DNA of 64,000 bases, from NCBI RefSeq assembly GCF_056712565.1, contig NZ_CM160072.1, one strand, 5' to 3'. The number at the start of each line of letters is the position of its first letter. The first letter of the stretch is position 1. Positions 54,101 to 57,100 of this stretch are shown here, piece after piece. A program made the position numbers.

Positions 54101-57100
54101 AACCTCGGCAACAGGTAAACCTGTTTTACGTTGGGTAGACCCGAGTTTTGATCAAAGCAAATATGACAGCATCGTCTGGAACCCAATCACTTATTATCCG
54201 GTACCGAAACCTTCTACCCAGGTAGGGCAGAAAGTTCTGGATAAAATTTTGAACTATACCAACACCGAAATGAAAGAAGCGATAGCGCAGCGTAAACCAC
54301 TGGTTACCACCGCTGGGCCGCGTAGTCTGATTTTCCGTGGGGCCATTACCGGTGTAGATACCAGTAAAGAAGGGCTGCAATTCTATGAAGTGGTTCCTGT
54401 TGCATTAGTGGTTGCGGGGACGCAAATGGCTACAGGCCACCGTACCATGGATACTCGCTTGTATTTTGAAGGTGAGCTGATTGATGCAGCGACTAATAAA
54501 CCGGTTATCAAGGTCGTTCGTCAGGGCGAAGGTAAAGACCTGAATAACGAAAGTACGCCAATGGCTTTCGAAAATATTAAACAAGTTATTGATGACATGG
54601 CGACCGATGCCACCATGTTTGACGTTAACAAAAAGTAGTTCCAGACGCGCCATCGTTAGATGGCGCTTTTTATTATCGGTTTCTGTCAGCGATTAAATTC
54701 AACACCACGTAACAAACGCCTCCGGCAATTAATCCCCAAAACGCAGAACCAATCCCGAACAGCGTCAATCCACTTGCCGTTACCAGAAATGCCACCACCG
54801 CCGCGTCGCGCTCACGCTCATTATGCAGCGCCTGATACAAACTGCCGCCAATGGTACTCAACAGCGCAAGACCTGCCAGCATCTGGATCCAACTTACGGG
54901 CAGGGCAGCCATCATCCCGGTAATGGCACTACCAAACAGACCTGCGATCAAATAAAAAATGCCGGCAACGGCAGCGGCCAGCCAACGTTGATCTTTATCC
55001 GGATGCGCTTCCGGGCTTTGGCAAATAGCCGCGGTGATTGCCGCAATACCGACGGAATAAACGCCGAAAGGGGAAAAAACAAGCGCCAGCAATCCAGTAA
55101 ACACAATCAACGGCGAAACAGGAGCCGAATACCCGGCTGCTTTCATTGCTGCGATACCCGGTGCGTTTTGCGATGCCATCGTCACCAGAAAAAGGGGGAG
55201 TGCAACGCTCAGACTGTGAGCAAACGAAAAATCAGGGGGAATATAAGTGGGGAGAACGGGTTTAAAGACAACATCAGTTGTGACAACGTCACCTTGCGCG
55301 ATAACGATCACGATCCCAATAATCATCGCGGCAATTACCGCATAGCGCGGCGCAACGGCCCTGGTTGCCAGCCATGCCAGCAACATACTGCCACACAACG
55401 TAAATTGACCATCCAGACTGGCAAACGCCTGTAAACCAAAACGTAATAAAATCCCGGCAAGCATTGCCGCCGCAAGCGAGTGCGGAATAATGCGCATCAG
55501 ACGAGCAAAGAGTCCCGTTATGCCGCAGAGGACTATTAACACGTTGGTGACAATAAAAACGCCGATGGTTTCGTTAAGTGTTAGTCCCTGCAATCCGGTG
55601 ACCAACAAAGCCGCGCCAGGCGTTGACCATGCGGTGAGAACAGGTACGCGATACCATAATGTCAGAGCCAGCGTACTGACGCCCATTGCCAGCCCCAGCG
55701 CCGTCATCCAGCCAGAGATTTGTGCAGTGGTGGCTCCGGCGACAATCGCTGCTTGCCAGATTATTGCCGCTGAACTGGCGTAGCCAATTAATACCGCCAG
55801 AAACCCCGCCAGTAGCGTGGGTGGAGGAATAGAAAACAGACGCATAGTCACCTCGTGCGTTATAACGTACAGGTACCGTAGCATTTGTCCGTTATAACGC
55901 ACAAGTGATAAACTTCCGTTTTGCCGGAGGAGTCGCATGGAAAATCTCGCTCGCTTTTTATCCACCACACTTAAACAACTACGTCAGCAGCGCGGCTGGA
56001 GTCTTTCGCGACTGGCAGAAGCGACGGGCGTTTCTAAAGCGATGTTAGGGCAGATTGAGCGTAATGAATCCAGCCCGACGGTCGCGACATTATGGAAAAT
56101 TGCCACCGGGTTGAACGTGCCATTTTCAACATTTATTTCCCCGCCGCAGTCCGCTACGCCTTCAGTTTATGATCCACAACGGCAGGCGATGGTGATCACT
56201 TCGCTGTTTCCTTATGATCCACAACTCTGCTTTGAACACTTCTCGATTCAGATGGCACCCGGTGCAATAAGCGAATCGACGCCCCATGAAAAGGGGGTAA
56301 TCGAACATGTCGTCGTCATTGATGGACAACTTGATCTGTGTGTTGATGGTGAATGGCAGAGCCTTAATTGTGGGGAAGGCGTTCGATTTGCTGCAGACGT
56401 CACGCATGTCTATCGTAATGGTGGAGAGCAAACCGTACATTTTCATTCCCTCATCCATTACCCGCGCAGTTAAGCGGGAAAACTATTTCGCAACGTCGCG
56501 CTTGTGGCTAAAATAGCCGCCATTTTTCAGCTACTGGATAAGAAAGTGACCGTATCTTCTCATCGTCTTGAACTGTTAAGCCCGGCACGCGATGCCGCCA
56601 TTGCCCGCGAAGCTATTTTGCACGGTGCCGATGCTGTTTATATCGGCGGCCCTGGTTTTGGTGCCCGTCATAATGCCAGTAATAGCCTGAAAGATATTGC
56701 CGAGTTGGTGCCGTTTGCCCATCGTTATGGTGCAAAAATTTTCGTCACGCTTAACACCATTTTGCATGATGATGAGCTGGAACCCGCGCAACGGCTGATT
56801 ACTGACCTCTACCAGACCGGTGTCGATGCGCTGATTGTTCAGGATATGGGGATTCTGGAACTTGATATTCCGCCGATTGAACTGCACGCCAGTACGCAGT
56901 GCGATATTCGTACAGTAGAAAAAGCGAAGTTCCTCTCTGATGTTGGCTTCACGCAGATTGTGCTGGCGCGAGAGCTGAATCTTGAGCAGCTCCGCGCGAT
57001 TCACCAGGCCACGGACGCGACCATTGAATTCTTTATTCATGGCGCATTGTGCGTGGCCTATTCGGGTCAGTGCTACATTTCTCATGCGCAAACAGGGCGT

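What the first reader, a model, noticed from the sequence alone, without database searches (positions are those of the whole stretch)
54639..54672. No IS609 transposase (insQ) between ydcL and ydcO; the whole window is free of IS elements
ydcL and ydcO are separated by only a 34-bp terminator here. Together with the IS-free ydbA, this suggests a lineage with low IS load in this chromosomal region, which helps place the source strain phylogenetically.
Basis: partly seen in the sequence, partly recalled or inferred. Interest (0 to 1): 0.2.

Follow-up and report, generated by a model that had tools for sequence, protein, structure and literature searches.

The report
Empty IS609 site between ydcL and ydcO
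In this E. coli B2 (type-strain-like) sequence, ydcL and ydcO are separated only by a 34-bp terminator, with no copy of the IS609 element that K-12 carries there; this common state (39% of complete genomes) says little about the strain's ancestry.

Summary
ydcL (53970-54638, +) and ydcO (54673-55845, -) converge on a 34-bp spacer (54639-54672). The spacer holds a canonical terminator hairpin, GCGCCATC-GTTA-GATGGCGC, followed by TTTTTAT.

K-12 has a 1748-bp IS609 remnant (tnpA pseudogene plus intact insQ/tnpB) inserted exactly between window bases 54673 and 54674. That point is 3' of TTTTTAT and lies inside the ydcO stop codon.

Among 5,426 complete E. coli genomes, 2,138 have the empty junction and 3,251 have the K-12-type insertion. 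Three distant non-coli Escherichia species also have the empty 34-bp spacer. The nearest outgroup carries a ~45-bp IS609 end-remnant at the same site.

No IS was found anywhere in the window. There are no transposase annotations or Pfam hits, no terminal inverted repeats and no plasmid-borne repeat DNA. The one exception is a 49-bp fossil of an IS609-type tnpB at 1213-1260.

The ydbA homologue is IS-free but carries a 1-bp frameshift at 25524.

The phylogenetic inference is weak. The empty state is shared by many lineages, whereas plain sequence identity (99.975% to ATCC 11775, serotype O1:K1:H7, phylogroup B2) places the strain directly. This is ordinary and already known.

The parts
53970..54638 (+). 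ydcL, a DUF3313 protein of 222 aa
   Evidence: ORF. Pfam DUF3313, E = 4e-63. RefSeq name on the near-identical record.
54639..54672 (.).
   Evidence: Sequence and ORF ends.
54647..54666 (+). Intrinsic-terminator hairpin GCGCCATC-GTTA-GATGGCGC for ydcL, followed by the T-run 54667-54671
   Evidence: Terminator scan. RNA fold -16.7 kcal/mol, z = -3.4. The hairpin is conserved in other Escherichia species.
54667..54673 (+). TTTTTAT, an unoccupied IS609 target motif. The K-12 insertion point lies between 54673 and 54674.
   Evidence: K-12 left junction is ...GCGCTTTTTAT|CCGGTGCGCC and right junction is ...GGAGGATGTCAA|TATCGGTTTC. An independent IS609-like copy on an E. albertii plasmid also follows TTTTTAT.
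54674..54713 (+). Right flank of the insertion point, identical over 40 nt to the DNA next to the IS609 right end in K-12. By inference only, its first ~16-20 nt would be matched by the guide of that element's TnpB RNA.
   Evidence: Sequence comparison. The guide/target idea comes from Meers et al., 10.1101/2023.03.14.532601, and PMC10690162. It was not tested for IS609.
54673..55845 (-). ydcO, a BenE-family transporter whose own TAA stop is at 54673-54675
   Evidence: Pfam BenE, E = 3e-160. The C-terminus is ...ADRNR* here and ...ADRNRY* in K-12, where the stop codon comes from the IS609 right end.
1213..1260 (+). 49-bp fossil of an IS609-type tnpB, the only IS-derived sequence detected in the window
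   Evidence: 82% identity to K-12 IS609 positions 1380-1427, E = 5e-5. None of 400 dinucleotide shuffles reached its score. In 7.3 Gb of plasmid DNA, the only hits outside chromosome-like records are IS609-like tnpB pseudogenes of E. albertii, at 85%. Pfam does not detect it.
21070..29384 (+). ydbA-like autotransporter, with no IS2 or IS30 but split into two ORFs by a 1-bp deletion at 25524
   Evidence: ORFs 21070-25545 and 25560-29384. The CDS is intact at 2771 aa in ATCC 11775. The difference is GGCAACAG -> GGCACAG. K-12 has IS2 + IS30 inside the gene.

Best explanation
The stretch is an ordinary convergent-gene spacer: the ydcL intrinsic terminator abutting the ydcO stop codon. It is also the unoccupied allele of the site where K-12 and about 60% of sequenced E. 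coli carry an old, decaying IS609 (IS200/IS605 family).

IS609 inserts without duplication immediately 3' of (T)TTAT. Here that motif is the tail of the terminator T-run and overlaps the last base of the ydcO stop codon. In this lineage the site was most probably never occupied, so the window shows the original gene junction.

Shown here: the junction, the exact insertion point, the target motif, the population frequencies, and the empty state in other Escherichia species.

Inferred: that the empty state in this lineage is ancestral rather than the product of a seamless excision.
For: - Exact junction mapping.
- YdcO ends with its own TAA stop here, whereas K-12 has an extra Tyr and borrows its stop codon from the IS end.
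- 2,138 genomes have the empty site and 3,251 have the K-12-type insertion, out of 5,426.
- Three non-coli Escherichia species (88-89% identical in tehB-ydcL) have the same 34-bp spacer. Two of them have GGAT or TGAT instead of TTAT.
- In occupied genomes the IS has diverged by 1.6-2.4%, like its flanks at 0.1-1.3%. tnpA is broken in different ways in different strains. This indicates one old insertion that was inherited, not a recent mobile copy.
- IS609 did not transpose in K-12 mutation-accumulation lines (PMC5009759).
- No IS609 ends or genes are present in the window at this site.
Against: - The closest outgroup sampled is Escherichia sp. MOD1-EC7003, 95% identical in tehB-ydcL. It carries a ~45-bp remnant of IS609 left and right ends at the very same TTTTTAT site.
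- The insertion may therefore predate E. coli, in which case empty E. coli sites would be excisions.
- IS200/IS605 excision is seamless (established knowledge of the family), so sequence alone cannot distinguish the two histories.
- Phylogroups of the 2,138 empty and 3,251 filled genomes were not determined here.
Confidence: 0.85

Rival explanations
1. The site was once occupied, and IS609 was removed by TnpA-mediated precise excision ('peel and paste' leaves no scar). The empty junction would then be secondary in the B2 lineage.
For: - The nearest outgroup (L005) has a mini-remnant of IS609 ends at the same site, diverged about as much as its flanks.
- tnpA was still intact in the ancestor of the occupied alleles, because different lineages carry different inactivating lesions.
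Against: - Three further Escherichia species are empty, and two of them lack the TTAT motif.
- The filled allele looks like one inherited insertion.
- Independent insertion at a strict target motif next to a hairpin is plausible. A different element, IS200C, has hit the same T-run in strain 98200.
Confidence: 0.12
2. The absence is an assembly artefact: a repeat-derived IS was collapsed or dropped from this sequence.
For: The window differs from the ATCC 11775 RefSeq record by two 1-bp indels and one 11-bp indel, so small assembly errors are possible.
Against: - The same seamless junction is found in 2,138 complete genomes, including independent assemblies of very close relatives.
- ydcO ends with its own stop codon.
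- IS609 is single-copy or absent in such genomes. For example, only the flanks of the query match in ABU 83972.
Confidence: 0.01
3. The lack of IS here reflects a lineage-wide low IS load, and is therefore a useful phylogenetic marker.
For: - The homologous K-12 stretch has IS2, IS30 and IS609.
- The window has none.
Against: - The empty IS609 site is shared by 39% of genomes, and by alleles 97.6-100% identical to the window.
- The genome-wide IS content of this lineage was not measured.
- Close relatives do pick up insertions in this very stretch. SF-088 and PE144 have ~1.3 kb extra within the 25-kb region.
Confidence: 0.15

Closest known systems
IS609 remnant of E. coli K-12 (tnpA pseudogene + insQ, b1432) between ydcL and ydcO
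   Same: Same chromosomal site. The flanks are identical for at least 40 nt to the right of the insertion point, and the left flank up to TTTTTAT is the same.
   Different: The window lacks all 1748 bp of the element: no tnpA, no insQ and no left-end or right-end hairpins. ydcO keeps its own TAA stop instead of Tyr + TGA supplied by the IS end.
IS608 (Helicobacter pylori) and ISDra2, the studied models of IS200/IS605 'peel and paste' transposition
   Same: IS609 behaves like them at the sequence level. It inserts 3' of a short motif (TTAT here; TTAC for IS608 and TTGAT for ISDra2, from my own knowledge). It makes no target duplication, has subterminal hairpins at both ends, and its right end finishes in TCAA as in IS608.
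   Different: Nothing of the element is present in the window; only the target motif is. IS609 activity, its target motif and any RNA guide have not been tested experimentally, as far as the searched papers show.
Vacant-site cleavage ('homing') by TnpB with its guide RNA (Meers et al. 10.1101/2023.03.14.532601; PMC10690162)
   Same: The window's TTAT + TATCGGTTTCTGTCAG... has exactly the form of a vacant donor site: target motif followed by the DNA that flanks the right end of the resident element.
   Different: This is purely inferential. No evidence was obtained here that InsQ is an active nuclease or that an RNA guide is made. Rfam finds no family in the K-12 element.
Rho-independent terminator shared by convergent genes
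   Same: A G+C-rich 8-bp stem and 4-nt loop, followed by a T-run on the ydcL strand.
   Different: On the ydcO strand the hairpin is not followed directly by a U-run (GUCUGGAACUACUUUUU), so it is a canonical terminator in one direction only.

Membership tests
IS200/IS605-family element (IS609) at ydcL|ydcO | Y1 transposase gene tnpA | tested here: not met
   tblastn of the K-12 IS609 TnpA and the IS200C TnpA against the window gave nothing better than E = 0.25. No such feature is annotated on the near-identical record.
IS200/IS605-family element (IS609) at ydcL|ydcO | tnpB (insQ) gene | tested here: not met
   There is no ORF and no tblastn hit at the site. The only trace in the window is a 49-bp fossil at 1213-1260.
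IS200/IS605-family element (IS609) at ydcL|ydcO | Subterminal left-end and right-end hairpins (TCCTTCAGGGCG core; right end ...GGAGGATGTCAA) | tested here: not met
   No matches in the window with up to 1 and up to 3 mismatches respectively.
IS200/IS605-family element (IS609) at ydcL|ydcO | Target motif (T)TTAT immediately 5' of the insertion point | tested here: met
   TTTTTAT is at 54667-54673. The same motif precedes IS609 in K-12 and an independent copy on an E. albertii plasmid. The site is a target, but an unoccupied one.
Any insertion sequence anywhere in the 64-kb window | Transposase ORF | tested here: not met
   None of the 55 RefSeq features is a transposase. Pfam on six-frame translations of 7348-9673 and 44577-45659 gave only a phage-integrase fragment, DUF1627, ABC-3, MCP and Hok. 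Translations of 58830-59322 and 20694-21068 were generated but not scanned.
Any insertion sequence anywhere in the 64-kb window | Terminal inverted repeats bounding 0.7-3.5 kb | tested here: not met
   Only two local palindromes were found, at 25206-25249 and 30462-30511.
Any insertion sequence anywhere in the 64-kb window | Repeated or mobile DNA shared with plasmids or present in several copies | tested here: not met
   Only 26, 22 and 9 plasmid records match, all being chromosome-like records or homologues of housekeeping genes. The one long unannotated stretch, 7630-9000, is single-copy in 1,049 genomes.
Any insertion sequence anywhere in the 64-kb window | Match to a curated IS library (ISfinder) | not testable with these tools
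   No ISfinder copy is available. Surrogates were used (see the rows above).
Intrinsic (rho-independent) terminator | G+C-rich stem-loop directly followed by a T-run | tested here: met
   Stem of 8 bp with 6 G-C pairs, loop of 4 nt, tail TTTTTATTAT. z = -3.4 against shuffles.
Intrinsic (rho-independent) terminator | Transcripts actually end there | not testable with these tools
   This needs 3'-end mapping data.

The most novel reading that the evidence does not exclude
The empty site may be more than a neutral absence. It could be the exact cognate target (TTAT + TATCGGTTTCTGTCAG...) of the guide-RNA nuclease InsQ/TnpB encoded by the IS609 allele that 60% of E. coli carry at this locus.

In that case the filled allele could convert empty alleles after DNA transfer between strains, a natural homing drive.

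This would explain three things seen here:
- tnpB stays intact while tnpA decays.
- An IS609 end-remnant sits at the same site in a neighbouring Escherichia species.
- The polymorphism is common.
Probability: 0.1. Interest if true: 0.4.

Novelty: already known. Interest (0 to 1): 0.08.

Why it matters
It matters little. The result confirms that this B2, type-strain-like chromosome shows the undisturbed ydcL-terminator-ydcO junction, and that the K-12 arrangement is the derived, IS-bearing one.

Three practical points follow:
- The K-12 YdcO C-terminus (extra Tyr, borrowed stop codon) is an IS artefact.
- Presence or absence of IS609 at this site is a coarse binary marker that splits E. coli roughly 60:40. 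It is not a fine phylogenetic placement tool.
- The locus could serve as a natural test bed for TnpB vacant-site cleavage in E. coli, if anyone shows that InsQ is active.

Tried and rejected
- Rfam scan of the window found only FnrS, MicC and RydC. A scan of the K-12 IS609 locus found nothing, so there are no IS-associated RNA families.
- Pfam on the putative tnpB fossil (three frames of 1140-1380) gave no hit. The fossil falls between the Pfam domains of TnpB. It rests on DNA similarity, the shuffle control and the database hits only.
- Literature searches for IS609 and insQ gave no experimental work on IS609's target site or on InsQ activity. They returned only inventory mentions and the K-12 mutation-accumulation result of no transposition.
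- I suspected that the low-GC, ORF-less 1.2 kb at 7758-8983 might be a decayed IS. This was rejected: it is single-copy, has no transposase similarity, and is flanked by prophage remnants.
- I considered reading the ~2-kb gap between ydcL and ydcO in other Enterobacteriaceae as an IS. This was rejected: it encodes an EamA-family transporter and an AraC-family regulator.
- Phylogroup typing of the empty and filled genomes was not possible with the summary outputs. Only identity bands could be used.

Full report
**What is at the coordinates.** The window reads ...AAAAAGTAG (ydcL stop, 54636-54638), then TTCCAGAC GCGCCATC GTTA GATGGCGC TTTTTA (54639-54672), then TTA (the complement of the ydcO stop TAA, 54673-54675).
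- ydcL (53970-54638, +) is a DUF3313 protein. ydcO (54673-55845, -) is a BenE-family transporter.
- The spacer is exactly 34 bp.
- It contains an intrinsic-terminator-like site: an 8-bp stem with 6 G-C pairs, a 4-nt loop and the tail TTTTTATTAT.
- The RNA fold is -16.7 kcal/mol, z = -3.4 against shuffles.
- On the ydcO strand the hairpin is not followed directly by a U-run.

**Comparison with K-12.** In an MG1655 record the same two genes are separated by a tnpA pseudogene and insQ, annotated 'RNA-guided endonuclease TnpB family protein'.
- The K-12 junctions read GCGCTTTTTAT|CCGGTGCGCC... on the left and ...GGAGGATGTCAA|TATCGGTTTCTG on the right.
- The insert is 1748 bp. It lies between window bases 54673 and 54674.
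- That point is 3' of TTTTTAT, with no target duplication, and it falls inside the ydcO stop codon.
- YdcO therefore ends ...ADRNR* here and ...ADRNRY* in K-12, where the TGA stop is supplied by the right end of the element.
- An independent IS609-like copy on an E. albertii plasmid is also preceded by TTTTTAT and ends in GGAGGATGTCAA.
- (T)TTAT is thus the target motif. The ends behave as in the IS608 model (right end in TCAA; from my own knowledge of the family).

**How common is the empty site.**
- Of 5,426 complete E. coli genomes, 2,138 have ydcL and ydcO contiguous as in the window.
- 3,251 have the K-12-type insertion.
- The remaining few dozen include secondary insertions into IS609 (ISVsa5, IS1). 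One strain has IS200C inserted in the terminator T-run, a few bases from the IS609 point.
- Only 931 genomes in the search (all matching records, not only those with the empty junction) are >=99% identical to the window. Empty sites also occur on alleles 97.6-98.6% identical.
- The empty state is therefore not specific to the window's lineage.

**Polarity.** A scan of one genome per species gave these results.
- Three non-coli Escherichia species have the same 34-bp spacer and hairpin. They are 88-89% identical to the window in tehB-ydcL. Their motifs read GGAT, TGAT or TTAT before TATCGG.
- E. albertii lacks ydcO there.
- Most other Enterobacteriaceae have about 2 kb between the two genes, encoding an EamA transporter and an AraC regulator. 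It is not an IS.
- The closest outgroup is Escherichia sp. MOD1-EC7003, 95% identical. After TTTTTAT it has a ~45-bp fusion of IS609 left-end and right-end sequence, followed by a deletion that removes ydcO.

This last result keeps open the possibility that the site was occupied before E. coli diversified and later excised seamlessly.

Among occupied E. coli alleles:
- The element has diverged 1.6-2.4%, against 0.1-1.3% for the flanks.
- tnpA carries different lesions in different strains.
- insQ is intact. It shows 14-26 nucleotide and 5-11 amino-acid differences between three strains.

These features point to an old, inherited insertion. IS609 did not move in K-12 mutation-accumulation lines (PMC5009759). 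I rate 'never occupied in this lineage' as most likely and precise excision as the main rival.

**Is the whole window IS-free?**
- The window is 99.975% identical to ATCC 11775 (NZ_CP033092.2, 2533754-2597753, reverse strand). It differs by 3 substitutions, two 1-bp indels and one 11-bp indel.
- None of the 55 features annotated there is a transposase.
- BLAST of all 64 kb against 72,556 plasmids returned 26, 22 and 9 records. All are chromosome-like records or homologues of porin, hrpA, aldA and similar genes. Any common enterobacterial IS would have given thousands of hits.
- Six-frame Pfam scans of the Rac-site stretch (7348-9673) and the trg/hok stretch (44577-45659) found a phage-integrase fragment, DUF1627, an ABC-3 pseudogene, an MCP fragment and Hok, but no transposase.
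- The longest unannotated stretch, 7758-8983, has 32-37% G+C, has no long ORFs and is single-copy in 1,049 genomes.
- No inverted-repeat pairs bound an IS-sized segment.
- No IS609 end motifs occur.
- Rfam finds only FnrS, MicC and RydC.

**The one exception.** Window 1213-1260 matches K-12 IS609 positions 1380-1427 at 82% identity, E = 5e-5.
- That segment encodes the LNRSILDQGWYEMRR part of TnpB. The window copy has an in-frame TAG there.
- None of 400 dinucleotide shuffles of IS609 reached its score.
- In 7.3 Gb of plasmid DNA the only non-chromosomal matches to this segment are IS609-like tnpB pseudogenes of E. albertii.
- The fossil lies in the MFS|smrA spacer, next to a strain-variable breakpoint near 1368.

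**ydbA.**
- K-12 has IS2 and IS30 inside ydbA. The window has neither.
- However, its 8.3-kb homologue is split into 21070-25545 and 25560-29384 by a 1-bp deletion at 25524.
- The gene is an intact 2771-aa CDS in ATCC 11775. The ST95-type relatives match the 25-kb query over 25,001 bases, one more than the window.
- Whether this is a real mutation or a sequencing error cannot be told.

**Placement of the strain.**
- Identity places the window in the O1:K1:H7 / APEC O18 / S88 / PMV-1 group and nearest to the type strain. That strain is serotype O1:K1(L1):H7 and phylogroup B2 (PMC4334874).
- Gene-content differences from K-12 in the same stretch are more informative than the IS609 site. The window has no paa cluster, no ydbD, only fragments of trg and hokB, and no hicA. 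It has an intact gapC.

**Verdict.** Nothing here departs from what is known about IS609 or IS200/IS605 elements.

The only speculative angle is that this vacant site has the form of the cognate target for the InsQ/TnpB guide RNA of the occupied allele. This follows the concept in 10.1101/2023.03.14.532601 and PMC10690162, and it was not tested.

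Noticed in passing
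window 1213-1260 (context 1184-1377): A 49-bp fossil of an IS609-type tnpB, with an in-frame stop, lies in the spacer between a DHA2-type MFS transporter gene and smrA. A strain-variable breakpoint sits next to it at ~1368: 1,454 genomes share the upstream segment and ~3,900 do not.
   Followed up: yes
window 25524 (ORFs 21070-25545 and 25560-29384): The ydbA-like autotransporter carries a 1-bp deletion (GGCAACAG -> GGCACAG) relative to ATCC 11775 and ST95-type relatives, where it is one intact 2771-aa CDS. It may be a real pseudogene or a sequencing error.
   Followed up: partly
window 19953 (ydbH 17539-20178): ydbH is intact here (879 aa), but it is annotated 'frameshifted' in the ATCC 11775 RefSeq record, which lacks one T at this position.
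   Followed up: partly
window 7399-9585: Remains of prophage integration next to ttcA (the Rac site of K-12). They comprise an integrase C-terminal fragment (7399-7629), a DUF1627 fragment (7642-7757), 1.2 kb of low-GC (32-37%) ORF-less single-copy DNA (7758-8983), and a frameshifted ABC-3 permease (8984-9585).
   Followed up: partly
window 45067-45622 and 59008-59244: trg is reduced to a 3' fragment and hokB to a fragment. hicA is absent and hicB is truncated. An 11-bp deletion at 59073 relative to ATCC 11775 lies in the hicB remnant.
   Followed up: no
window 20693-21070 and 30464-30763: Compared with K-12 there is no fea/tynA/paa cluster between ydbL and ydbA, and no ydbD between pdxI and ynbA. 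gapC (42856-43857) is intact here but is a pseudogene in K-12.
   Followed up: partly
window 21727-25175: Inside the ydbA-like gene there are several internal direct repeats, with shifts of about 440 bp and multiples of it, at 80-94% identity.
   Followed up: no
window 4528-4645, 11607-11727, 44587-44650: The sRNA genes FnrS, MicC and RydC all score above Rfam gathering thresholds. McaS, which lies upstream of smrA in K-12 (from my own knowledge), was not found.
   Followed up: no
L004 (E. coli strain 98200) 993-1710: A ~707-bp IS200C is inserted in the T-run of the same ydcL terminator, a few bases from the IS609 point. The terminator tail is therefore a repeated target for IS200/IS605-family elements.
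   Followed up: partly
L005 (Escherichia sp. MOD1-EC7003) 4704-4750: A ~45-bp fusion of IS609 left-end and right-end sequence sits at the same TTTTTAT site, followed by a deletion of ydcO that reaches sutR. This species is the closest outgroup to E. coli in the sample (95% identity in tehB-ydcL).
   Followed up: partly
L001, L086, L087 (occupied E. coli alleles): tnpA of IS609 is inactivated by different lesions in different strains, while insQ/tnpB stays intact with mostly synonymous differences. This suggests constraint on tnpB after the loss of the transposase.
   Followed up: partly
L010-L084 (other Enterobacteriaceae), e.g. L012 4707-6670: Most genera have an EamA-family transporter gene and an AraC-family regulator gene (~2 kb) between ydcL and ydcO. 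Escherichia, Atlantibacter, one of the two Salmonella loci sampled and a few Citrobacter lack them.
   Followed up: partly
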